64,000 nucleotides of DNA from a virus. The DNA lies in the IMG/VR virus record IMGVR_UViG_3300043497_000005. The stretch is one strand, 5' to 3'. Both the position numbers and the translations under genes were made by a program. Numbering within the stretch: position 1 is the stretch's first letter; each line of letters begins with the position of its first letter. Shown in pieces: positions 25,483 to 36,773 of this stretch. Below the pieces are notes generated by a model. It did no database searches, was not told the DNA's origin, and saw only the letters and a program-made list of their open reading frames with translations.

Positions 25483-25529
25483 AGGCCGGTCACCTGAAGC
25501 CGCCCCCGGCCCTTGGTGACCGGCCTTTT
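25483..25529. terminator. Hairpin between convergent genes
   Basis: AGGCCGGTCACC...GGTGACCGGCCT followed by TTT. Confidence 0.55.
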
Positions 25530-26065
25530 CATTTCTGCGCAGTGAACAGCGGCGTATGCCGCCACGCCAGTTGCGGGTTGAGCCACGCGCATTGAAAACT
25601 CCACAACGCGGCTGCATCACTCTCGTCGGTGGTGGTCGCGGGCCATCCCATTTGCTGGCAGCGCTCCAGCGTCAGCGGCTTGGCGATCTTCGCTTTCATA
25701 TTCTGGCCGATGAAGTGTGCTCGCACTTGGCTTACTGATGCTTGGCGAAGATCGTAGCGGTCGTAGCACCACTCCTCCAGATGCTCGGCGAGGCCGAACA
25801 GCAACCGCGTGGTGCTAATATTGGTCTTGCCGCCCATGAACGATGGCACCGCCGGGCTCTCGTACACGATCAGGTCAGGGCTCATGCGATGGTGCTTCAC
25901 CATCGCCTCAAGCCACTTCCTGAATTCACGATAGGTCTCGGCGTGCGATGCGCCGCCCTTGCTGAACCGCACGTGCCCACATAGCGGGATCGAGCCGGGC
26001 ACGCCAGCGGCCCAGCCTGTTGTCGTAGCTAAATCGAGCGCGAGCACGCGACCAGTAAAGGTCAC
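25529..26065 (-). CDS. RuvC-like Holliday junction resolvase
   Basis: LALDLATTTGWA, IVYESP, DESDAAA catalytic pattern. Confidence 0.8.
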   Translation of the reverse strand: MTFTGRVLALDLATTTGWAAGVPGSIPLCGHVRFSKGGASHAETYREFRKWLEAMVKHHRMSPDLIVYESPAVPSFMGGKTNISTTRLLFGLAEHLEEWCYDRYDLRQASVSQVRAHFIGQNMKAKIAKPLTLERCQQMGWPATTTDESDAAALWSFQCAWLNPQLAWRHTPLFTAQK

Positions 26066-26247
26066 CGCCCGCGCCTGCTGCGTTTTTTGACCGTAACAAC
26101 CACCCGCTTCGCCTTGCCGGTCTTCGGCTTGACGTTGACGGTACGCGTTGCCTTGTCGATCTTTGTCTTGTTTTTCTCCACGCGCTTTTCTCGCAGTGCG
26201 CGAAGCTCCATCTCTTTGGGTCCTACTTTATCGTGTGACATCATCAT
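26062..26247 (-). CDS. Small basic protein
   Basis: AAGGAGCAA RBS; K/R-rich. Confidence 0.55.
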   Translation of the reverse strand: MMMSHDKVGPKEMELRALREKRVEKNKTKIDKATRTVNVKPKTGKAKRVVVTVKKRSRRGR

Positions 26248-26461
26248 TGCTCCTTGGTGGATGCAGGTCAGGCCGCAGCCTCTCGCGGTCGATAGAGAAC
26301 AGCCTCTCGATCTTTATAACATGATGCGATGGAATACGATGCCAGCGCGTCAGTGTCGGCAGCGCGAGCTTGAGCGCCTTGGCCAAGCGATAGCGTGAGC
26401 CAGCCGCCGCCACCGCCAGCCGCAGACCCTCATCCCGAATTCGTTTTTTGCTCGTTGCCAT
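26228..26461 (-). CDS. Cro/YdaS-like HTH regulator
   Basis: AGSRYRLAKAL...RWHRIPSHHVIKIE...LRPDL; divergent from the RAMP-like gene. Confidence 0.75.
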   Translation of the reverse strand: MATSKKRIRDEGLRLAVAAAGSRYRLAKALKLALPTLTRWHRIPSHHVIKIERLFSIDRERLRPDLHPPRSNDDVTR

Positions 26462-26606
26462 GCGCGGGTAGCCTACAGGGAGACGACATCGGGATCACAC
26501 ACCCCCCGCAATTTATTTTTCACTGTCCTCTTGCATATAGTTGTTATTTATCTTACTGGGGGTTTGACCGTCAGCGTGGTGCTGGCCGGGCAAGGAGCAA
26601 ACTAAA

Positions 26607-27431
26607 ATGGCTGTGAAGAAAAAAGACGACACCGATCAGGCGATCATGATCAAGAAGATCGAGCCTGACATTGTACGTTGCGCGATCCTCGGTGCTTCGC
26701 CGATGATCATGCATCGGTTCGCGTTCAAGGCGTGGCAAGAATTGCTGTTGCCTGCCGCCAAGAAGAACGCGGCAGCGAAGGCGGAGAATCTAAAGCACGA
26801 TCCGCTCAACGAATTTCGTGAGTGCTGCTACCGCAACCGCTCGGAAGAAGAACCGACGGCGATCCACTATCCGGCTGGCGCGTTCTCGAAGGCACTGGCA
26901 GCGGCAGCGCTCGACCTGCCCGGAGCAACCAAGGCGCAAATCCTGCGGCTTGTCGGCGTCGTCAGCACACAGATCAATATCTATGGCACGCCCACGCTGG
27001 GCATGGATATGGTGCGATCCAGTGACATGGCCAGAACACCGGACGTGCGCACGCGCGCATATCTGCCGGAATGGTGCTGCACGGTGGACATCAGCTACAT
27101 CAAGTCGCTGATCGGGAAAGAGCAGATCATCAACCTGCTTGATGCTGCCGGTCTCATCGTCGGCATCGGCGACTACCGCCCGCAGAAGGGCGGACAGTAC
27201 GGTCGCTTCGAGGTAGTGAGCCCGGACAACAAGGACTTCGTGCGTATCATGAAGCAACAGGCGCGCATAGCGCAGGAAGCTGCGCTGGAGACCCCTACGT
27301 TCTTCAACGAGGATTCCGCTGAGCTATATCAGTGGTTCAATGAGGAGACCGAGCGTCGTGAGAAAACCGTGCCCTCGTCCAAGGGTAACGGCAAACCGAA
27401 GCCGCAGCCGACACAGGTGCCGGTGCAGTAA
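26607..27431 (+). CDS. RAMP/Cas7-like protein (putative guide-RNA-binding effector)
   Basis: N-terminal strand ILGASPMIMH and C-terminal Gly-rich loop GLIVGIGDYRPQKGGQYGRFEV resemble RAMP (Csm3/Cas7) hallmarks; lies upstream of the repeat array. Confidence 0.7.
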   Translation: MAVKKKDDTDQAIMIKKIEPDIVRCAILGASPMIMHRFAFKAWQELLLPAAKKNAAAKAENLKHDPLNEFRECCYRNRSEEEPTAIHYPAGAFSKALAAAALDLPGATKAQILRLVGVVSTQINIYGTPTLGMDMVRSSDMARTPDVRTRAYLPEWCCTVDISYIKSLIGKEQIINLLDAAGLIVGIGDYRPQKGGQYGRFEVVSPDNKDFVRIMKQQARIAQEAALETPTFFNEDSAELYQWFNEETERREKTVPSSKGNGKPKPQPTQVPVQ

Positions 27432-27439
27432 ACGAAAGC

Positions 27440-27474
27440 GGCGGCGATCAATTATGGTCGCCGCCATTTTTTTT
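27440..27474 (+). terminator. Intrinsic terminator between the RAMP-like gene and its partner
   Basis: GGCGGCGATCA-ATTA-TGGTCGCCGCC, then A and T8. Confidence 0.65.
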
Positions 27475-27489
27475 GAAAGGAGCGAGACA

Positions 27490-28044
27490 GTGAGCAGTAG
27501 ATCAGACAAACGCCAAAGAGAACTCGATGCCGCGATCCGCGCATGCGAGGATGAAACAGGCCATGCGATACCGAAGGTGGTGGTGGCGGCAGCGCAGGAC
27601 CCAACGCACCCAAGCTATGAGGTGCTCACCCTCGAATTTAATTGGAACGTTCAAGAGGCTGCACAAGCACACTGGGAAGATCGAGCGCGCGAGCTTATCC
27701 GCGAGGTGCGTGTGATGGTGGTTTACGGTGACGCCAAGATCGCGACGCCGGTTTACGTCAGCGATCCGCGCGTTCCCGAGTCGTCGTTTATCCGCACAGT
27801 AAGAATCGCGCGAAGCGGACCAACCAAAAGGGCGGTGCTGCAGGCGGAGTGCGACCGGATCGCTTCGGCGATCAACCGCGCGATAGGTCTGGCTGTTGTG
27901 TTCGATCTAGAACAGCGTTTCGAAAACGCGCTTGCCGAGATCATGATGGCGGCCAACGAGCTAGGCAGCCGCGACGACGATGGCGACGACGATGACGGTG
28001 GCAGCGCATCACCGCGCGGGCCGGAGCCATCACCGGCACCGTGA
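27490..28044 (+). CDS. Partner protein of the RAMP-like gene
   Basis: GTG start with AAGGAG RBS; PKVVVAAAQDPTHP...FNWN...AAQAHW..RARELI; ends 8 nt before the array. Confidence 0.7.
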   Translation: MSSRSDKRQRELDAAIRACEDETGHAIPKVVVAAAQDPTHPSYEVLTLEFNWNVQEAAQAHWEDRARELIREVRVMVVYGDAKIATPVYVSDPRVPESSFIRTVRIARSGPTKRAVLQAECDRIASAINRAIGLAVVFDLEQRFENALAEIMMAANELGSRDDDGDDDDGGSASPRGPEPSPAP

Positions 28045-28052
28045 GCTTGCTT

Positions 28053-29570
28053 GGCATGGCAGGCACGGTGAGGTGAGGTACGTTGAGGCGCGGCTGTGCG
28101 CGGTCTGGTTGGGCTCGGTTAGGTCAGGCAGGCAAGGCCCGGCGAGTTGTTGTGAGTTATGATATGGCAAGTCGCGGCGTGGCAGGCGCGGTTAGGCCGG
28201 GCGAGGTTAGGTGCGTCGCGGCAGGGTATGGCGGGCCGAGGCCGGGCTGGGCAGGACTGGTGAGGTCGGGCCGGGATTGGTCAGGCAGGGCGCGGCGAGG
28301 CGCGGCGTGTTGTGTCCGATTAGGTTTGGGCAAGGCAGGCATGGTGTGGCGCGTTTGGCGATGGCGAGTTGAGGCTAGTCCGGTTGAGACGAGGCATGTC
28401 GCGGCGAGGCAGGCGAGGTAGTCTGGCCACGTCTAGCTCGGTCACGGCGAGGCTTGGCAGGCGCGGTGTGTCAGGTCAGGTCATGTCATGGCCGGGTAGG
28501 TCAAGGCGCGGCCCGGTAAGTCATGGCGTGGCAGGCAAGGCATGGTGTGATCGTGTGGGGTGAGATCAGGTGCGACGAGGCAAGGCAGGCGCGGTTAGGC
28601 GGCGAGGGGCACGGCTGGGCACGGCGAGGCAAGGTATGGCAGGCATGGCTCGGTTTCGGCGGCGCTCGGTGTTGCACGGTCAGGCCGGGCGTGGCGTGGC
28701 ATGGCAGGCACGTTATGGCTGGGCAAGGTAGGTCATTGGTGTGGCAGGCGACGTCTGGCGCGGGCGGCTAGTTGTGGTCGGGTCAGGCAAGGCATGGCAG
28801 GCGAGGTACGGCAAGGTGTGTTCGTGCGAGGCAAGGTCGGGCAGGCTGGGCAAGGCGCGTCGGCGCTTGGTGAGGCAGTGTGCGGCGTGGCTGGGCAAGG
28901 TTAGGCAGGCGAGGTGCGGCGAGGCCGGATATGGCACGGTCCGGCTTGGTGGGGTTTGGCGCGGCAGGCGCGGCAAGGCGAGCCCGGTCAGGCCGGGGTC
29001 GGCTCTGGCGAGGCACGGCATGGCGAGGCAGGCTGGGCGGGCTTCGGTTTGGCAAGGCATGGCTGGTTGCGGTTAGCTCTGTTGCGGCGTGACGTGGCAG
29101 GCTGGGCTTGGCTTGACGCGGTCGGGTTCGTTGCGGTGGGGCAGGTTGTGGTCAGGCGTGGCAGGCGAGGCGTGTTTTGGTCCGGCAGGATAAGGCTAGG
29201 TCTGGCAAGGCAGGCTGGGCTTGGTATGGCGCAGCGAGGCGGGGCACGATGGGGCAAGGCACGGCAGGCGCGGACTGGCTCAGTATGGCTAGGCGCGGCT
29301 GGGTAAGGCGCAGCGAGGCAGGCAAGTTAGGGTCTGTCGCGGCGAGGCAAGGACGGCCCGGGCGTGGCGAGGATTGGCACGGCAGGCAAGGTTGGGCGTG
29401 GCGAGGTCTGGCATGTAGCGGCTAGGTGAGCCACGGCAGGCTAGGCACGCACAGGTGACGTGAGGCATGGCGAGACGAGGATGGGTTGGGTGACGCGAGG
29501 CTAGGTCAGGCAGGCTGGGCTCGGTAGGGTCGTGCATGTTCGGGTTGGTCACGTCGCGGAGTGGCAGGCA
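28053..29570 (+). ncRNA. GGY-NN pentamer array, 25 units delimited by GGCA(GG); candidate guide-RNA array
   Basis: Strict 5-nt periodicity; 26 GGCAGG delimiters; 21 of 25 units have length 5n+4; terminator follows. Confidence 0.85.
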
Positions 29571-29575
29571 AAAGG

Positions 29576-29604
29576 AAACCGGGAGAATTACTCTCCCGGT
29601 TTTT
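29576..29604 (+). terminator. Terminator closing the array
   Basis: AAACCGGGAGA-ATTAC-TCTCCCGGTTTTT; overlaps the end of the convergent ORF. Confidence 0.75.
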
Positions 29605-29773
29605 CCTTGCTGGTTAGTTCGTGGTATCGAATGCACCACGTGTCGATATCGCTCTGCGTGTAGCCGCGCGAGTTCATCTCTTTCCAGAATTCCTCTCGCG
29701 TCATCCGTTTGTCGCCGTACTGACCGAGCAGGTACGCCAGCGATTCGTATTTGGTGAGCGGCTTGGTCTTCAT
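29588..29773 (-). CDS. Hypothetical protein (gapped near-match to array unit 24)
   Basis: MKTKPLTKYESLAY...YTQSDIDTWCIRYH...; ATGA overlap. Confidence 0.65.
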   Translation of the reverse strand: MKTKPLTKYESLAYLLGQYGDKRMTREEFWKEMNSRGYTQSDIDTWCIRYHELTSKEKPGE

Positions 29774-30420
29774 GGCTGCGGCCTGTGCTCCCGGCAGAAC
29801 CACCGACCCGGCTTGCCCTTCAACAGACTGACACCGTAACCCCAGCTAGCGTCGCGACAGCACACCTCGCAGAAATTGGAATCGGGCCAACCGGGGCCGA
29901 TCAGGTAGCGCTTGGTTTTCACGCCGCCACCGATGACGTCATTGACCGGCACCACGCGGCACTCAGTGCGGTTGCGCTCGTTGGTGCGCGTGATCGGCCA
30001 CATCTCCTCGCCGGTTTCCCAGAACCACTTCTTCAGCGCCTGCATGTCCATCACGTAGACGTTGAGGCCAACCTCGCTCTTCGGTGTCGAGAACGCATAG
30101 ATCAGGATGTCGGCGACCGAGGTGTACATCCAGCCTTGTCGCTCGTAGCCCGGGACCGTACAGGTCCACGTCTCCAGCGCGAAGGCGGTGTATCCCGTCG
30201 TCCCGTCGGTGGGCCAGTGCACGATCTTCTCCTCGACAGTCTTCTGCCCGCCCGGCGTTTCTACCAGCGTGTCGACGTAGCGCTGGGTTGGGTCGTTGTT
30301 GTCGAGAAAGCGATACCTGTCTGGAAAATATCGGTCATAGAAAAATGGCTTCAGGATCATGTCGCGCTGCCTGACCTGCCAAGCATTCTTGATGTCGAAA
30401 GTGTTGTCGATGTCGCTCAT
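29770..30420 (-). CDS. Putative PD-(D/E)xK nuclease-like protein with C-terminal Cys motif
   Basis: YVDTLV...VEEK, ADILIY; CEVC...WFCREH. Confidence 0.55.
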   Translation of the reverse strand: MSDIDNTFDIKNAWQVRQRDMILKPFFYDRYFPDRYRFLDNNDPTQRYVDTLVETPGGQKTVEEKIVHWPTDGTTGYTAFALETWTCTVPGYERQGWMYTSVADILIYAFSTPKSEVGLNVYVMDMQALKKWFWETGEEMWPITRTNERNRTECRVVPVNDVIGGGVKTKRYLIGPGWPDSNFCEVCCRDASWGYGVSLLKGKPGRWFCREHRPQP

Positions 30421-31421
30421 CCTGCAGCCGCCTCTGTCCCGGCTTCAACGAACAGGTTGGTGAAGTCAGAACGCTCCTCACGCTGGTTGGCCTCGCCATA
30501 TGGCGGATAAGAACCGGCGCGGATGATCTCGTAGGATTTTTCCGGCTTCTCCGAGTGCTTACCACGCGGTGCCTCGAAGTGCGTCGGGATGCTGGCTGCC
30601 GCCGGACGTGTGGTGGTTTCACCGCGCGTGGCGAATATCATGTGCTCGGTGCTGTTGCGATAGTAGCTGCCGAGCCCGAACGGCGGCGGCTTGATCCACG
30701 TGATGACGGTGCGGTGCTGAAAGCCCCAATGCTCGACCAGCTTGCACGCCTCGCTCATGAAGTTGTTGGTCGTCCAGCAATACATCTGACAGCCTTCTTC
30801 TTCATCGGCCCACGCCGCAACGTCAAGCTCACGCAGTTGTTCGATGGTCTGCATCGCATAGCCCGGCTTTGCGCGTGCAGCGATGGACAACCAATCGTAA
30901 TCCCAAGCCGGATCGATGACGATAGTGCGGAATTTTCCGACGCGGGGCACGAGGTTCAGGATACGATATTCATCGGCCTGTACCCTCGTGGTGCGCAGAA
31001 TACTCGACACCTCGTTGCGCTGAAGCGTCGGGCAGATCGTGCCATCCTTCACCAACCGCTTGAAAGTAACTTCATCGAGCCGGGCGATCTTGTCGATGGT
31101 GTTGTAGTCGGGTGGAAGCATCTTGGCCAAATGGGAGTCAATGACTCCCATTTGGGAATCGCACCACGTCGCAATCCGCATGAACATGCTGGCAACACGA
31201 CGGTGGAATTTCAGATCACTATCGAGCACATTGATCCACTGCCCGTGCTCCAGACCAGCCTTAGCCCTATGCAGATCGCGGCCAAGCTCGATGAACCCAG
31301 TGACGGCGGTTTGCCTAATAACATCCCATTGATCGTTGAGCCGCTTCGCCCACTGTCGTCTCGTCAGTTGTAATTCGCCCGGCTTGATGACAGTCAATTC
31401 CCGGCTTGGCTTCTTAGGCAT
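30417..31421 (-). CDS. MT-A70-family adenine methyltransferase with N-terminal DNA-binding-like domain
   Basis: IVIDPAW, YCWTTN, WGF..TVITWIK, G.Y.RNSTEH, HSEKPE. Confidence 0.85.
   Translation of the reverse strand: MPKKPSRELTVIKPGELQLTRRQWAKRLNDQWDVIRQTAVTGFIELGRDLHRAKAGLEHGQWINVLDSDLKFHRRVASMFMRIATWCDSQMGVIDSHLAKMLPPDYNTIDKIARLDEVTFKRLVKDGTICPTLQRNEVSSILRTTRVQADEYRILNLVPRVGKFRTIVIDPAWDYDWLSIAARAKPGYAMQTIEQLRELDVAAWADEEEGCQMYCWTTNNFMSEACKLVEHWGFQHRTVITWIKPPPFGLGSYYRNSTEHMIFATRGETTTRPAAASIPTHFEAPRGKHSEKPEKSYEIIRAGSYPPYGEANQREERSDFTNLFVEAGTEAAAG
31127..31155. promoter_or_regulatory. 29-bp perfect palindrome, copy 2 (inside the methylase gene)
   Basis: CCAAATGGGAGTCA-A-TGACTCCCATTTGG. Confidence 0.65.
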
Positions 31422-31899
31422 GCTGTTTCCTTACTGCGAGCGGGTTGGTGTACATGCGGAAGTGCGTCGGGCAGTACGACGACATGCTGCCGTTATAGTC
31501 GTAGCCGCGCGGCTTGCCGCAGACCTTCTGCAGCTTCCACTTGCCGCTGCGCTCCGGCAGGATGGCCTTGCAGCCGTTCGACCCGTTGTCGAGATACTCA
31601 ACGCCGGGGGTCTTGCTGATGGCGTCGACCTCGGTGACGGTCAGGGGAGTTCGGGGTGGCATCTTGGTCACGTTGTTGCTCCTTGGTGGTGGTGGCTTGG
31701 GTGGTGGCTTGAAGGTCATCAGCGAGGTTGTGGTCCTCCTCTTGAATGCCTCTCTAGGCAGGCGATGCTTGCGCCCGGCAATGGCATTGCGGGAGACGGC
31801 GTAGCCAGCCTGTTGCAGGCCATTGGCCACGTACGACAACGAACCGCCCTCATCCCATAGACGGACGAGGAGGGCGTCGGCCTCGTCGGTCCATATCAT
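31414..31899 (-). CDS. gcrA: GcrA-family regulator
   Basis: MIWTDE...LVRLWDEG.S...VSRNAIAGRKHRL plus C-terminal CKAIL...CG...YCPTH. Confidence 0.85.
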   Translation of the reverse strand: MIWTDEADALLVRLWDEGGSLSYVANGLQQAGYAVSRNAIAGRKHRLPREAFKRRTTTSLMTFKPPPKPPPPRSNNVTKMPPRTPLTVTEVDAISKTPGVEYLDNGSNGCKAILPERSGKWKLQKVCGKPRGYDYNGSMSSYCPTHFRMYTNPLAVRKQHA

Positions 31900-32132
31900 G
31901 GCTTGCGCTTTCGCTTGCTTGAGAAGATGTCCGGGCGAACCTGCTCCGGTGTCATCTCGATTAGCGGGGCGATCTCCATCACGTGGTGCGCTGGCACACG
32001 ATTCCACGCCGCCACGTTCTGGTGCGTTACGCCGAGGTGTCGTGCGATCACCGCAGCGAACCCCGGCTTGGAGAAGATCAGCCGCATCACGTGGTCGCGC
32101 TCCTTGTCACGCCTCGGGCTGGACCGCTTCAT
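31896..32132 (-). CDS. Second Cro/YdaS-like HTH regulator
   Basis: IARHLGVTHQNVAAWNRVPAHHV...VRPDIF. Confidence 0.75.
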   Translation of the reverse strand: MKRSSPRRDKERDHVMRLIFSKPGFAAVIARHLGVTHQNVAAWNRVPAHHVMEIAPLIEMTPEQVRPDIFSSKRKRKP

Positions 32133-32432: not shown

Positions 32433-33362
32433 ATGCAGGTTATCCCTTGGGATGGCCAGCCCATCACGCAGCCGGGCTGGTATTCGAACATCCCCATTGA
32501 GCGCTATCATTCGGCTGGCATCTGCGACGGTCCTGCGGTGTCGTCGTCCAACTTGCGCAGATGCTGGACGCACAGCCCGGCGCACATGAACGCTGAGTGG
32601 GCCGAGAACCCCGAAGCCGAGCCGCGCACCGCGACGCGCGCGATGATTCTGGGTCAGGCCGCGCACCATCTCTTCCTCGGCGAAGATGGCTTCTCGGCGA
32701 AGTTCATCGCACAACCAGCGGAATATCCCGACAAGAAGACCGGGCTGAAAAAGCCGTGGCACAACGGCAGCGATTACTGCAAGGCGTGGAACGACAAGTT
32801 CTCTGATCGCGTCATCGTCACGCTGAAGGAATTGCAGGCGATCATCGAGATGGCGAAATCGATGGCGCTCGAACCGCTGGTCAAGGAAGGGCTGTTGACC
32901 GGCCACGTTGAATGCTCTGGCTTCATCAAGGATCAGGAGACCGGGCTGTGGATCAAGGTGCGGCCCGACGTGATCCCGACCGACGGCGGAGACTTCGCTG
33001 ACCTCAAGACCGCAGCCGAGGTGACGACGCCAGCGCTGATGTCATCGATCCGCAGCTACGCGTATCACATGCAGGGCGCGCTGATCTGGGAGGTGTGCGA
33101 GGTGCTCGGCCAGCCGTTCGAATCGTTCGTGCTGATGTTCATCGAGACCACCAGACCGTTCTGCGCCCGCACAGCACCGATGGACGACAAGGACCTTGCG
33201 TTCGGCAGACAACAGAACCGCCTGATGCTGCGCAAGATCAGGGAGTGCATGGAGCTAAAGCATTTCCCGGGACCGGGTGAAGGCGATCTGTCGCCGATGC
33301 CGCTGTCGAACGACGAGCGCCAGCGCATCGAGACCCGGCTGAAGGTGGAAGGGCTGATATGA
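32433..33362 (+). CDS. recE: RecE/ExoVIII-like exonuclease (DUF3799)
   Basis: VSSSNL, LGQAAH, KVRPD, DLKT, YHMQGA. Confidence 0.85.
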   Translation: MQVIPWDGQPITQPGWYSNIPIERYHSAGICDGPAVSSSNLRRCWTHSPAHMNAEWAENPEAEPRTATRAMILGQAAHHLFLGEDGFSAKFIAQPAEYPDKKTGLKKPWHNGSDYCKAWNDKFSDRVIVTLKELQAIIEMAKSMALEPLVKEGLLTGHVECSGFIKDQETGLWIKVRPDVIPTDGGDFADLKTAAEVTTPALMSSIRSYAYHMQGALIWEVCEVLGQPFESFVLMFIETTRPFCARTAPMDDKDLAFGRQQNRLMLRKIRECMELKHFPGPGEGDLSPMPLSNDERQRIETRLKVEGLI

Positions 33363-34804
33363 AGAAGGACAAGCCGGTCGCTCATTACCCGACGGCGCTC
33401 AACAGCGGCAGCCACCCGAGGCTCAACTTCAAGGGGCTCGACATCAAGCAGAACGGCGACGACTTCATCATCGAGAAGTCAGATGATCCAAACGCGATGC
33501 CGAAGCTGGCAAAGGAGATAGTCGAGCGGATCGATGCTGGAGCGTTCGCTTCGCTCGGCGAGATGATCAACCCGTTTGAAAGCACCGCAAAGGTGGATCA
33601 CCCGACCGACAAGCGAAACAAAGTGCCGGGGCTCACGATGCCGAGCGGGATGACGCCGCCGAAACCGCATCGCTTCGGTCCCGGCTACGACAACAGTACG
33701 CCGGTCCAGACCATGCGCGCCACGAGGAACGACACCGACCTCAAGCGCACGCTGTTAAACATCGTGAACAAGAAAGCTGGATCGCCACCACCGCAATACG
33801 ACGACGACCGCCCGCTGATCGACCTGTTGCACGAGGCGACCTTCACCGAGCCCGACGGCCTGCAGTGGATCGAGAAGAAGTACGATCTGCGCATGCTGTT
33901 GCGGAAGGCGCACTGCTTCACCCTCGACAAGGAGACCTCGGCGATGGTTGGCGATTTCTCGCTCGCCATAGCCAGCGATCTGGAGAGCGCGCGCCGGATG
34001 GCGATCCCACCGTTTCCGGTGACGTGGATCGAGATCAACAACATCGCGCGGCTGGATCGCCTCAAGGAACGCGGCGTCAAGCTGACCGCGCAGGCGGCAG
34101 GCGAGACCGAGGCAGGCCCGCCGGTCGAGCGCGTTGGCTGGCTGATTCATCCCGAGGCGGAGGGTGGCCATTATGCGACCTACGTCGCCTTGGTGGGTGC
34201 TGGGGTGATGGTTGCGCCACTGTCCTATTTCTGGTGCACCGGACCCACCAATGGAGAAGAGCTTCAGACGATGCTGTTGCGGGAGTCGGACATCGATGTC
34301 GCCTTTGTCGAGCGGCTCACGTTCGGCGTCAACAATTCTGGCGTCTACGCATCTGACGCCCGCCCGTCACCGACGCCGCTGCACACAGAGCGGATGCAAA
34401 ACATGGATGAGGCGAGCTATTCTGCCAACGTCAGGGAATTGATGACGGAGATCGGCGGCGAGCTTCGTCACGTCTGGGGGTTCCTGATCGCGCTCGGTGC
34501 CGGTCAGCTTGGCATTGAAGCGAAGTACAGCGATCAGCCGAAGCCACAGAGCACGCCGCCGACGATGAAGAACGGCAAGCCGTTGCTGCCGCTGGAGCAC
34601 AAGGTGCTGCACCTGCATCTGGCGAGAAAGATGACGCCAGACAAGGTGGTGGCGCGGATGACGACGCACCACAAGCACCGCTGGCATGAGGTGCGCGGAC
34701 ATTTCCGCTTGCTGAAGAGCGGCAGGCGCGTGCCGATTAAACCACACGCGCGCGGCGACAAGCGTCTCGGCGTGATCGAGAAGACCTACCGCGTCGAGCG
34801 GTAG
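33359..34804 (+). CDS. Large hypothetical protein
   Basis: 481-aa ORF; C-terminal HEVRGHFR...PHARGD. Confidence 0.7.
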   Translation: MKKDKPVAHYPTALNSGSHPRLNFKGLDIKQNGDDFIIEKSDDPNAMPKLAKEIVERIDAGAFASLGEMINPFESTAKVDHPTDKRNKVPGLTMPSGMTPPKPHRFGPGYDNSTPVQTMRATRNDTDLKRTLLNIVNKKAGSPPPQYDDDRPLIDLLHEATFTEPDGLQWIEKKYDLRMLLRKAHCFTLDKETSAMVGDFSLAIASDLESARRMAIPPFPVTWIEINNIARLDRLKERGVKLTAQAAGETEAGPPVERVGWLIHPEAEGGHYATYVALVGAGVMVAPLSYFWCTGPTNGEELQTMLLRESDIDVAFVERLTFGVNNSGVYASDARPSPTPLHTERMQNMDEASYSANVRELMTEIGGELRHVWGFLIALGAGQLGIEAKYSDQPKPQSTPPTMKNGKPLLPLEHKVLHLHLARKMTPDKVVARMTTHHKHRWHEVRGHFRLLKSGRRVPIKPHARGDKRLGVIEKTYRVER

Positions 34805-35424: not shown

Positions 35425-35767
35425 AGGCTACATCAAGATTTTCCGGACCTACTCCTACGTGGACAAGAATCCGGTGATCGACAAGGTGCGCACCATCATG
35501 CAAGACGAAGGGCTGTTCGATCAGCTAACCATCGCATCCGAGATTTCGAATGTGGGGCGTGCCACGATGGCAAACTGGTTCCACGGACCAACAAGAAATC
35601 CACAGCACCACACGGTCGCTGCGGTGATCACCGCGATGGGCTATGAAGAACAGTTCGTGAAAAAGAGAGCCATCGACATCGAGCGCGAGCGCAAGGTCGC
35701 CGCCGAGTGGACAGCGAAACAACCGAAACCGAAGAAAAGGAGCAAACCAAATGGTAGACGTAGCTGA
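35417..35767 (+). CDS. HTH protein
   Basis: IASEISNVGRATMANWFHGPTRNPQ. Confidence 0.65.
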   Translation: MARGYIKIFRTYSYVDKNPVIDKVRTIMQDEGLFDQLTIASEISNVGRATMANWFHGPTRNPQHHTVAAVITAMGYEEQFVKKRAIDIERERKVAAEWTAKQPKPKKRSKPNGRRS

Positions 35768-36773
35768 AATCGAGCGGCGTGTTGATCGCGCCATCACCTC
35801 CGCGATCCCGATCAGCGTCAAGTTGGGCGGCATCGATCCCGAGAACTACGGTCAGGTGATGGAGTTTTCGAAGGCGATGGCAACCTGCCGCGCTGGCATT
35901 CCGCAATGGCTGCGCGGATCGGTTGGTGACTGCCTGATGATCTGCACGCGCGCGCTGCGCTGGGGCATGGACCCGTTCTTCGTCGCGGAGAAATCCTACG
36001 CGATGCAGAACAAGAGCGGTGAGGTCAGGGTTGGTTATGAAAGCCAGTTGGTTCATGCCGTGATCGAGGCGCTGGCTCCGCTCAAGGGCAGGCTGCGCCA
36101 TCGCTTTGAGGGCGAAGGCGATGACACCGTCTGCATCGTATCCGGCACCTTCAAGGGCGAGGACGCGCCGCATGAATACACCAGCGAGCCGCTCGGCAAG
36201 CGGGTCAAGGACATCGGCAGGAACGAGAAGGGCAACTTCCGTGGCTCACCGCTGTGGCTGCAGAAGCCGCGCGTGCAGTTGTTCTATGATGCGTCGCGCG
36301 ACTGGGCGCGCATCAATTGTCCTGACGTGCTGGCTGGCGTCTACACCCGCGACGAACTACCAGACCACGAGCCGGTAGACGTAACGCCAGACAGTGGAAA
36401 GAAAACCGATGCATTGATGCAGCGGTTAAAGGAAGGGCGAGAGAAGCACGCTGACCATAGGGGATTCGATGCAGAGCATGTCGCACGAGAGGCGACGCTA
36501 AGCTCAGTGATCGAGGGCAGCACCAATTCCGGTGAAGCCGAACAGGGAGAGAACGATGAGCGCGTCAATGAGCCTGACGTTGAAGGACGGCAGGCAGATG
36601 CTGGTGATCGACCAGATGGAGATCGAAACGAAGACCGAGGCGAAGTCGCTGTCGGCGATGATCGAGAAGTGGGCGGAGAGCCTGCCGGACAGCAAGCCGA
36701 GGACGAGGACCAAGGCAAGGAAGACACCTTCCCGCCGGACCGCACCCCAGCGAAGCCCAAAGGCAAACGGTGA
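35751..36773 (+). CDS. recT: RecT-like single-strand annealing protein
   Basis: GDCLMIC..A.RWGMDPFFVA, W...PRVQL...WARINCPDVLAGVYTRDE; acidic tail; same operon as RecE. Confidence 0.75.
   Translation: MVDVAEIERRVDRAITSAIPISVKLGGIDPENYGQVMEFSKAMATCRAGIPQWLRGSVGDCLMICTRALRWGMDPFFVAEKSYAMQNKSGEVRVGYESQLVHAVIEALAPLKGRLRHRFEGEGDDTVCIVSGTFKGEDAPHEYTSEPLGKRVKDIGRNEKGNFRGSPLWLQKPRVQLFYDASRDWARINCPDVLAGVYTRDELPDHEPVDVTPDSGKKTDALMQRLKEGREKHADHRGFDAEHVAREATLSSVIEGSTNSGEAEQGENDERVNEPDVEGRQADAGDRPDGDRNEDRGEVAVGDDREVGGEPAGQQAEDEDQGKEDTFPPDRTPAKPKGKR

What the first reader, a model, noticed from the sequence alone, without database searches (positions are those of the whole stretch)
28053..29570. Array grammar: 5-nt GGY-NN beads cut into 25 units by a 4-nt GGCA step
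Hand-parsed GGCAGG delimiters start at 28058, 28127, 28181, 28250, 28334, 28408, 28456, 28530, 28584, 28638, 28703, 28743, 28796, 28840, 28904, 28963, 29027, 29096, 29160, 29209, 29263, 29317, 29381, 29435, 29509 and 29563. Unit lengths are 69,54,69,84,74,48,74,54,54,65,40,53,44,64,59,64,69,64,49,54,54,64,54,74,54, so 21 of 25 are 5n+4. The triplet is mostly GGC/GGT (some GTY, GAY, GCY) and the NN differ in every unit. A conserved scaffold with free dinucleotides fits information storage, not slippage-driven microsatellite. The 4-nt phase break is a natural processing or boundary mark.
Basis: seen in the sequence. Interest (0 to 1): 0.9.

Follow-up and report, generated by a model that had tools for sequence, protein, structure and literature searches.

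The report
Phage VIPR guide-RNA array (staggered type)
The 1.5-kb run of GGY-NN five-base beads is the guide-RNA array of a phage VIPR system, a CRISPR-like RNA-guided DNA-silencing system first described in 2026 preprints.

Summary
All 26 GGCAGG delimiters are present and 21 of 25 units are 5n+4 long. Lag-5 autocorrelation is 0.49. Entropy per bead position is 0.41 / 1.07 / 1.19 bits for G-G-Y and 1.90 / 1.98 bits for N-N.

The array is the vrRNA array of a VIPR system (bioRxiv 10.64898/2026.04.26.720920 and .720927).
- The 274-aa gene upstream (26607-27431) models as a Cas7-type RAMP. It also matches the solved SUSP1 Vipr protein across its G-loop.
- Arrays with the same grammar lie beside homologues of this gene in 88 loci, always with the G-rich strand on the coding strand. 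Cultured Gordonia phages are among them.
- Under the published 1-nt-skip rule, units 1, 24 and 16 match genes of other soil phages at 24/26, 25/28 and 21/24. All three matches are in codon register. For units 1 and 24 the targets are sibling-phage alleles of the phage's own genes.
- The phage's own alleles, known for units 1 and 24, stay below 80%.
- Each match starts and stops exactly at the GGCA steps, so the steps are guide boundaries. This fits the "staggered array" type of the preprint.

No RNA data show processing. The scan has already found VIPR at least eight times on other DNA.

The parts
26607..27431 (+). vipr gene: 274-aa RAMP (Cas7-like) protein that would bind one GGYNN repeat per subunit
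   Evidence: AlphaFold2 model has pLDDT 94.6. The top 50 Foldseek PDB hits are almost all Csm3/Cmr4/Cmr6/type VII Cas7/gRAMP chains, E 3e-5, prob 1.0. phmmer hit to PDB 36pp_D 'SUSP1 Vipr protein', E 0.0035, covers the G-loop; G186-I-G-D189-Y190-R191-P aligns with SUSP1 D177-W178-R179. 2700 representative homologues.
27440..27473 (+). intrinsic terminator (11-bp stem plus T8) between vipr and the accessory gene
   Evidence: sequence read. The RBS and GTG of the next gene follow at once, so the accessory gene and the array are reached only by read-through (inference).
27490..28044 (+). candidate vap (vipr-accessory protein) gene, 184 aa with an acidic tail; function unknown
   Evidence: RBS AAAGGAG plus GTG at 27490. 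Homologues lie between vipr and the array in L002, L003, L005, L006, L017, L040, L124 and others. The model has pLDDT 88 but no PDB fold match. No Pfam, PDB sequence or Atlas family.
28045..29569 (+). vrRNA array: 25 abutting units of 9-17 GGYNN repeats, each separated from the next by a 4-nt GGCA step (1-nt register slip)
   Evidence: RNA fold z-score is -1.34, so there is no strong structure.
28058..28126 (+). unit 1: guide against the TDE.DA.ALW..Q motif of the RuvC-like resolvase gene of sibling phages
   Evidence: 24/26 in L274 1090-1127 and 23/26 in L002, L255, L256, L258-L260 and L262. 17 hits reach 80% or more, all in frame; 0/150 shuffles reach the best score.
28963..29026 (+). unit 16: guide matching an ATPase gene in metagenome contig L327
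   Evidence: 21/24 at L327 3745-3779, in frame, 0/150 shuffles reach it. The window has no homologue.
29381..29434 (+). unit 23: weak candidate guide against the RecT-like gene of siblings
   Evidence: 17/20 in L255 2929-2957(-) and 16/20 in L266, at the same codons and in frame, but 11/150 shuffles reach this score.
29435..29508 (+). unit 24: guide against the 61-aa gene next to the array, as carried by sibling phages
   Evidence: 25/28 in L255 8923-8963 and in L256, 24/28 in L316, 23/28 in L270 and L252. In frame; 0/150 shuffles reach it.
29576..29612 (.). bidirectional intrinsic terminator that closes the array and the convergent 61-aa gene
25529..26065 (-). own RuvC-like resolvase gene; own allele of the unit-1 site at 25593-25630 matches only 19/26
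   Evidence: Three of the 7 mismatched bases come from Ser (AGT, not TCN) and Leu (TTG, not CTN) codon-family differences.
29588..29773 (-). own 61-aa gene; own allele of the unit-24 site at 29622-29662 matches only 20/28
35751..36773 (+). own RecT-like gene (phrog_561); it carries a 1-aa indel at the site matched by unit 23 in siblings
26228..26461 (-). divergent Cro/YdaS-like gene; vipr is the first gene of the opposite early transcription unit
   Evidence: same layout in L003-L005

Best explanation
This is a VIPR (Viral Interference Programmable Repeat) locus of a soil phage, probably of an alphaproteobacterium. It comprises vipr (26607-27431), a candidate vap (27490-28044) and a tail-less 'staggered' array of 25 vrRNA units (28045-29569) closed by a terminator.

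By the published mechanism, Vipr subunits polymerise along the RNA, one per GGYNN repeat. They bury each GGY and expose the NN pairs. The NN pairs then base-pair with double-stranded DNA that reads NNx NNx ..., where the skipped base is usually the codon wobble position, and the bound filament silences transcription.

Shown here: the grammar of the array; the RAMP fold and G-loop of the protein; the tight, strand-fixed association of gene and array across many phages; guide-target matches that obey the 1-nt-skip rule; and the coincidence of match ends with the GGCA steps.

Inferred:
- The targets are sibling phages competing for the same host. Their RuvC-like resolvase and a small 61-aa gene are hit, and possibly recT. 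The phage's own alleles escape through changes at codon positions 1-2.
- The one-base register slip at each GGCA stops filament growth and so sets guide length without a structured 3' tail.
- The terminator after vipr keeps protein in excess over guides.
For: - Grammar and entropy.
- Protein: RAMP fold; sequence match to the solved SUSP1 Vipr over the G-loop, with the D-[W/Y]-R contacts described in 10.64898/2026.04.26.720927.
- Association: a DNA-pattern search alone returned more than 119 viral and more than 120 genomic stretches. 69 of 119 viral stretches encode a homologue of the 274-aa protein. In 88 of 88 loci that hold both, the G-rich strand is the coding strand and the array is adjacent.
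- Cultured Gordonia phages UmaThurman and Ecliptus show the same grammar right after their homologue.
- Targets. Hits at 80% or more in 0.76 Mb of relatives: skip-1 38, skip-0 17, skip-2 8, reversed guides 7.
- No self hit reaches 80%, as the discovery paper reports for its own guides.
- Match blocks end at the steps.
- Published description of staggered arrays with a 1-nt overlap.
Against: - No RNA evidence for the array. The only RNA run holding part of the stretch has two contigs on vipr and none on the array, and DNA carry-over cannot be excluded.
- Only 3 of 21 clean guides have a significant target in the 2.7 Mb I could search.
- The sequence match to the solved Vipr is weak (E 0.0035) and covers 56 residues.
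- The thumb arginine R138 of SUSP1 aligns with a leucine here; conserved R148/R150 lie nearby.
- The vap candidate has no recognisable DNA-binding fold.
- The preprint says staggered arrays were not among the architectures confirmed by small-RNA sequencing.
Confidence: 0.93

Rival explanations
1. It is a VIPR array, but it is not cut into discrete guides. One long transcript carries many separate Vipr filaments, each confined to one unit by the register slip, and works as a multi-guide RNA.
For: There is no hairpin, ribozyme or conserved tail between units that could direct a nuclease. The boundary is only GGCA|GGC. The preprint did not confirm staggered arrays by small-RNA sequencing.
Against: The legend of fig. 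S18 of the preprint speaks of 'individual processed vrRNAs'. All characterised VIPR types yield discrete RNAs of about 100 nt.
Confidence: 0.2
2. It is a G-rich non-template-strand element acting at the DNA or transcription level (R-loop-primed replication origin, G-quadruplex tract, Chi-like array or Rho-related signal) in the replication module.
For: 47% G against 21% C over 1.5 kb, GG every 5 nt, located between helicase/resolvase and recombination genes.
Against: This does not explain near-maximal NN entropy beside fixed GGY, the obligatory RAMP gene on the same strand in 88/88 loci, or the codon-phased matches to other phages' genes that stop at unit borders.
Confidence: 0.02
3. It is a slippage-born microsatellite or decayed repeat with no function.
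For: Four units are out of phase and some beads are degenerate.
Against: Slippage copies whole units and would not keep GGY fixed while randomising NN. The same grammar, GGCAGG step included, recurs from actinobacterial to proteobacterial phages next to the same protein family. Some guides are conserved between arrays at different positions.
Confidence: 0.01
4. It is a protein-coding region with unusual composition; ORFs of 82-130 aa are open in it, and a gene caller annotated the equivalent stretch of Gordonia phage UmaThurman as gp40.
For: ORFs overlap the array on both strands. UmaThurman gp40 is annotated over its array.
Against: Period 5, not 3. ORFs are open in several frames because stop codons are rare in GGYNN. 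There is no lag-3 signal.
Confidence: 0.01

Closest known systems
Type II VIPR system of Escherichia phage SUSP1 and of a Pseudomonas fulva prophage (bioRxiv 10.64898/2026.04.26.720920; structures in 10.64898/2026.04.26.720927; PDB 36pp)
   Same: A small RAMP protein with the G-loop D-[W/Y]-R next to an accessory gene. Guide RNAs made of GGY/NN pentamers, 9-16 per guide. NN read against DNA with one skipped base that falls on the wobble position. No self-targeting. Targets lie in competing mobile elements.
   Different: - No conserved 3' tail or pseudoknot after each guide.
- 25 guides abut directly and are offset by one base, against four separate vrRNA genes in SUSP1.
- The protein has 274 aa with an extra C-terminal helical part, against 202 aa, and is only weakly similar in sequence (E 0.0035).
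- Targets found here are sibling-phage alleles of the phage's own core genes, not a satellite.
'Staggered vrRNA arrays' of the VIPR discovery preprint (fig. S18 of 10.64898/2026.04.26.720920)
   Same: [quoted passage not shown] This is exactly what a 5n+4 unit length with a GGCA|G step means.
   Different: The figure and its loci are not available to me, so I cannot say whether this clade or the GGCAGG step is the one shown. The preprint did not list this architecture among those confirmed by small-RNA sequencing. Here the boundaries are supported by where target complementarity starts and stops.
Class 1 CRISPR backbone: Cas7/Csm3/Cmr4 filaments on crRNA
   Same: Same fold. One subunit per fixed number of guide bases. 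A thumb breaks the guide-target duplex periodically.
   Different: Period 5 with three bases buried and two read, against period 6 with five read. No repeat-spacer array and no cas1/cas2 or other cas genes in the locus. Phage-borne.

Membership tests
VIPR system | Vipr protein: minimal RAMP fold (RRM core, glycine-rich loop, thumb hairpin) | tested here: met
   Model pLDDT 94.6. Foldseek top hits are Cas7-family RAMPs, E 3e-5, prob 1.0. The beta-hairpin at 145-165 and the G-loop G186-x-G188-D189-Y190-R191 are conserved in 106 homologues. phmmer hit to solved SUSP1 Vipr, E 0.0035.
VIPR system | vrRNA made of tandem YNNGG/GGYNN repeats with conserved GGY and hypervariable NN, about 9-16 repeats per guide | tested here: met
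   Entropy 0.41/1.07/1.19 against 1.90/1.98 bits. 9-17 repeats per unit in the window and a mode of 9-11 in 520 units of other loci.
VIPR system | Array adjacent to vipr, usually with one accessory (vap) gene, in a phage or provirus | tested here: met
   vipr, 184-aa gene and array lie on one strand. 88/88 loci hold gene and array on the same strand. The phage context includes helicase, RuvC-like, exonuclease, RecT and GcrA genes. The identity of the 184-aa protein with a named vap1-6 could not be tested.
VIPR system | Targets obey the 1-nt-skip rule, mostly with the skipped base at the codon wobble position | tested here: met
   Units 1, 24 and 16 score 24/26, 25/28 and 21/24, with 0/150 shuffles reaching each score, all at frame offset 0. 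Hits at 80% or more: skip-1 38, skip-0 17, skip-2 8, reversed 7.
VIPR system | No self-targeting at 80% or more NN match | tested here: met
   The best self matches are 19/26, 20/28 and 22/32.
VIPR system | Array transcribed; guides co-purify with Vipr; complex binds and silences matching DNA | not testable with these tools
   Only metagenome runs hold the phage. One metatranscriptome has two contigs on vipr and none on the array.
Type II VIPR (SUSP1-like) | Each vrRNA ends in an invariable structured 3' tail of about 40 nt (pseudoknot in the SUSP1 clade) | tested here: not met
   Units abut with only GGCA|GGC between them. No fold signal, z = -1.34. No Rfam match.
Staggered vrRNA array (VIPR sub-architecture) | Neighbouring guides overlap by 1 nt, so the register slips by one base at each boundary | tested here: met
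   21/25 units are 5n+4. The same GGCA|GGC step is seen at 738 boundaries in other loci. Target matches start and stop at the steps.
CRISPR-Cas | Repeat-spacer array plus cas genes (an adaptation module, or several effector subunits) | tested here: not met
   No direct repeats of CRISPR type. No cas domains in the neighbours.

The most novel reading that the evidence does not exclude
In tail-less staggered arrays the one-base register slip at GGCA|GGC may be the whole punctuation. It would throw the next GG out of the Vipr pockets, end cooperative filament growth, and so define guide length with no structured handle, ribozyme or dedicated nuclease. If so, 25 guides are packed at almost 100% coding density. 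The phage would aim them at conserved catalytic motifs of sibling phages' core genes, while its own alleles escape through Ser/Leu codon-family switches and amino-acid changes at codon positions 1-2.
Probability: 0.3. Interest if true: 0.55.

Novelty: new member of a known kind. Interest (0 to 1): 0.35.

Why it matters
VIPR is a very recent addition to RNA-guided systems, and this locus is a rich natural example. It has 25 guides in 1.5 kb, of an architecture (staggered, tail-less) that the discovery paper described but did not confirm experimentally.

This locus adds three points:
- Target complementarity itself marks the GGCA steps as guide borders.
- At least two guides are aimed at sibling phages' alleles of the phage's own genes, with self-escape at codon positions 1-2.
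- The same GGCAGG punctuation is shared by phages of Actinobacteria and Proteobacteria, and is mis-annotated as a protein gene in at least one GenBank phage.

It does not reveal a new kind of system. This scan has already met VIPR on at least eight other windows.

Tried and rejected
- Megablast of 26000-31500 against GenBank phages: no match.
- Rfam at a permissive threshold: only two chance-level hits on the terminator.
- No whole genome is held for this window.
- My first hypotheses were a TRAP-like ring protein reading triplets, an R-loop origin, a Chi array, a Rho signal and G-quadruplexes (noted). I dropped them once the PDB hit led to the VIPR papers.
- Exact-pattern scan of IMG/VR for all 26 NN bases of unit 1: 0 hits. 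Natural matches are 88-92%, so exact scans are too strict, and I ran no further search on them.
- 232 guides parsed from other loci, scanned against this window: 3 hits at 80%, fewer than the reversed control's 10. There is therefore no evidence that the fetched phages target this one.
- Self match of unit 24 alone (20/28) is not significant (23/200 shuffles). Only the relatives' alleles are.
- Unit 23 is weak (11/150 shuffles).
- The accessory protein has no Pfam, PHROG function, PDB sequence hit, Atlas family or Foldseek match below E 0.7.
- Contig L197 (64,000 bases, Atopobiaceae MAG) is not this window.
- Reads: only assembled contigs were available, so RNA ends could not be mapped. The joints that suggest alternative array content in runs X7 and X12 have short sides (21-23 nt) and are weak.
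- Supplementary tables of the preprint are not held, so the type (I-VII) could not be assigned.

Full report
**What is there.** Window 28045-29569 is non-coding. It lies between the stop codon of a 184-aa gene (28042-28044) and a bidirectional intrinsic terminator at 29576-29612.
- It is 47% G and 21% C, with a GC skew near +0.37 throughout.
- Base identity at lag 5 is 0.494, against about 0.23-0.26 at lags that are not near a multiple of 5.
- At long lags the peak moves to 5n-1 (lag 34 above 35, lag 39 above 40). This is the signature of repeated 4-nt steps in a 5-nt lattice.
The 25 unit lengths are as stated and 21 are 5n+4.
- Over the 243 beads of those 21 units the entropies are 0.41, 1.07 and 1.19 bits for G, G and Y (95% pyrimidine) and 1.90 and 1.98 bits for the two N. 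All 16 dinucleotides occur.
- Tandem Repeats Finder reports only short fragments, Rfam reports nothing, and the RNA fold energy is not unusual (z = -1.34).

**Surroundings.**
- Upstream on the same strand lie a 274-aa gene (26607-27431; PHROG 4652, unknown function), a strong terminator (27440-27465 plus T8), and a 184-aa gene that starts at GTG 27490 behind an AAAGGAG ribosome-binding site.
- A Cro/YdaS-like gene diverges from the 274-aa gene.
- Nearby genes encode a helicase, a RuvC-like resolvase, an MT-A70 methylase, GcrA, a PD-(D/E)XK exonuclease and a RecT-like protein.
- This is the early/replication region of a phage, probably of an alphaproteobacterium.
- The same DNA is present in many soil metagenomes.

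**The array always travels with the 274-aa protein.**
- Close relatives of that protein carry arrays of the same grammar: L002 has 1.95 kb, L003 has 1.0 kb, and L006 has one upstream of the gene.
- A search of public collections with nothing but the DNA pattern GGCAGGC plus five beads returned more than 119 viral and more than 120 genomic stretches.
- 69 of the 119 viral stretches encode a detectable homologue of the 274-aa protein at 22-48% identity.
- In all 88 loci that hold both gene and array, the G-rich strand is the coding strand and the array is next to the gene.
- Two cultured Gordonia phages have the same grammar directly after their homologue, GGCAGG step included. In UmaThurman the array is annotated as protein gp40. 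In Ecliptus it is an unannotated gap.

**Identification.**
- phmmer against PDB sequences gave one hit below E 0.01: chain 36pp_D, 'SUSP1 Vipr protein' (E 0.0035). The match covers residues 148-203, including G-I-G-D189-Y190-R191-P aligned to G-V-G-D177-W178-R179-P.
- This led to three 2026 preprints on VIPR systems.
- They describe a phage-encoded minimal RAMP protein, Vipr, that polymerises on vrRNAs made of 9-16 YNNGG repeats, one subunit per repeat.
- GGY is buried, with D177, W178 and R179 of the G-loop among the contacts.
- The NN pairs read double-stranded DNA with one skipped base per pair, usually the codon wobble position.
- The result is transcriptional silencing of competing phages and satellites.
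- Seven types are named. Array architectures include 'staggered arrays with overlapping vrRNAs', in which guides derive from positions overlapping by 1 nt.
- An AlphaFold2 model of the 274-aa protein, built on 106 homologues, has pLDDT 94.6.
- Its best PDB fold matches are Csm3, Cmr4, Cmr6, type VII Cas7 and gRAMP chains (E 3e-5, probability 1.0).

**Functional test by target prediction.** I read the NN of the 21 in-phase units as NNx NNx ... and scanned 2.7 Mb of fetched phage DNA on both strands. This included 80 loci of relatives found through the RuvC-like protein.

| Unit | Best match | Target gene | Shuffles reaching it | Own allele |
|---|---|---|---|---|
| 1 | 24/26 (L274); 23/26 in seven loci; 17 hits at 80% or more | RuvC-like resolvase, motif TDE.DA.ALW..Q | 0/150 | 19/26 |
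| 24 | 25/28 (L255, L256); 24/28 (L316) | homologue of the 61-aa gene at 29588-29773 | 0/150 | 20/28 |
| 16 | 21/24 (L327) | ATPase gene | 0/150 | none in window |
| 23 | 17/20 and 16/20, same codons | RecT-like gene of two relatives | 11/150 (weak) | 1-aa indel at the site |

- Every one of these matches starts at a first codon position, so the skipped base is the wobble base.
- In the relatives' DNA, hits at 80% or more number 38 for skip 1, 17 for skip 0, 8 for skip 2 and 7 for reversed guides.
- No guide reaches 80% on the phage's own genome.
- In the own RuvC-like allele, 3 of the 7 mismatched bases come from Ser AGT (not TCN) and Leu TTG (not CTN). Six-fold degenerate codons are the only synonymous route around a guide that ignores wobble bases; this last point is my inference.
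- Most relatives that share the replication module lack a VIPR cassette near it. The cassette is therefore accessory in this lineage.

**The 4-nt step.**
- I laid each of the three significant guides on its target together with the neighbouring beads. Matching is near-perfect from the first bead after one GGCA step to the last bead before the next, and falls to 0-1 of 2 per bead outside.
- The AG of the step itself does not match.
- Across 738 boundaries in other loci the step is the same, GGCA followed by GGC in 83%.
- Some guides are shared between arrays of relatives at different positions: unit 24 with L002 7522 at 23/26, unit 14 with L002 8102 at 21/24, and unit 17 with L003 7082 at 22/26. 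Most guides are unique.

**What is not shown.**
- There is no RNA evidence for the array. The one metatranscriptome that holds part of the stretch has two contigs on vipr only.
- Whether discrete RNAs are cut at the steps remains open. The alternative is that one transcript carries many filaments.
- The 184-aa protein is conserved in position but has no recognisable fold or family. Calling it a vap rests on position alone.
- The VIPR type (I-VII) could not be assigned, because the preprint's tables are not held.

**Verdict.** The element is a staggered vrRNA array of a VIPR system: a new member of a kind described in 2026, not a new kind. The scan has met VIPR on at least eight other windows.

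Noticed in passing
L247 4600-4960 (Gordonia phage UmaThurman NC_031249.1, about 33330-33690): The annotated protein gene gp40 ('hypothetical protein') lies over a GGYNN array with GGCAGG steps, directly after the Vipr homologue gp39. It is most likely a mis-annotated vrRNA array.
   Followed up: partly
L248 3155-4871 (Gordonia phage Ecliptus OP820472.1): A compact cassette sits between the tail assembly chaperone and tape measure genes, like an inserted moron. It holds two HTH genes, the Vipr homologue gp19 and a 260-bp array in an unannotated gap.
   Followed up: no
L006/L007 4200-5950: In this relative (Vipr 66% identical) the array lies upstream of vipr, is more degenerate (GGCAGGA steps, many broken beads), and is covered by called 'genes' of 110 and 282 aa that are probably spurious.
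   Followed up: no
window 27440-27473: A strong terminator lies directly between vipr and the accessory gene, with no room for a promoter. The accessory gene and array can only be reached by read-through, which could keep Vipr in large excess over guides.
   Followed up: partly
window 28408-28455, 28638-28795: Units 6, 10, 11 and 12 (48, 65, 40 and 53 nt) are out of phase and have many beads without GG. They may be decayed guides or carry internal indels.
   Followed up: no
window 28500-29250, in soil runs X7 and X12: Some metagenome contigs match the flanks exactly but carry other GGYNN sequence in place of one or two units. This hints at unit turnover between co-occurring strains. The joints have short sides (21-23 nt), so the hint is weak.
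   Followed up: partly
L255 5101-6075 and L255 8923-8963: The sibling phage targeted by unit 24 carries its own VIPR array, with a Vipr only 22% identical to this one. Two different VIPR lineages therefore circulate in the same phage group.
   Followed up: no
L003 6555-6623: A relative's array holds a guide to the same RuvC-like motif, shifted by one codon and tuned to another allele (DEADAAALWDYQC). Different phages seem to aim at the same conserved site.
   Followed up: partly
window 30417-32007: A GcrA homologue overlaps an MT-A70 methylase gene on the minus strand, a phage-borne pair of cell-cycle-type regulators. This points to an alphaproteobacterial host.
   Followed up: no
L169 (Nocardia), L132 (Aureimonas), L138 (Paenibacillus), L197 (Atopobiaceae MAG), L198 (Streptomyces): Arrays of 0.4-1.2 kb with the same GGCAGGC grammar occur in genomes of very different bacteria, presumably in prophages.
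   Followed up: no
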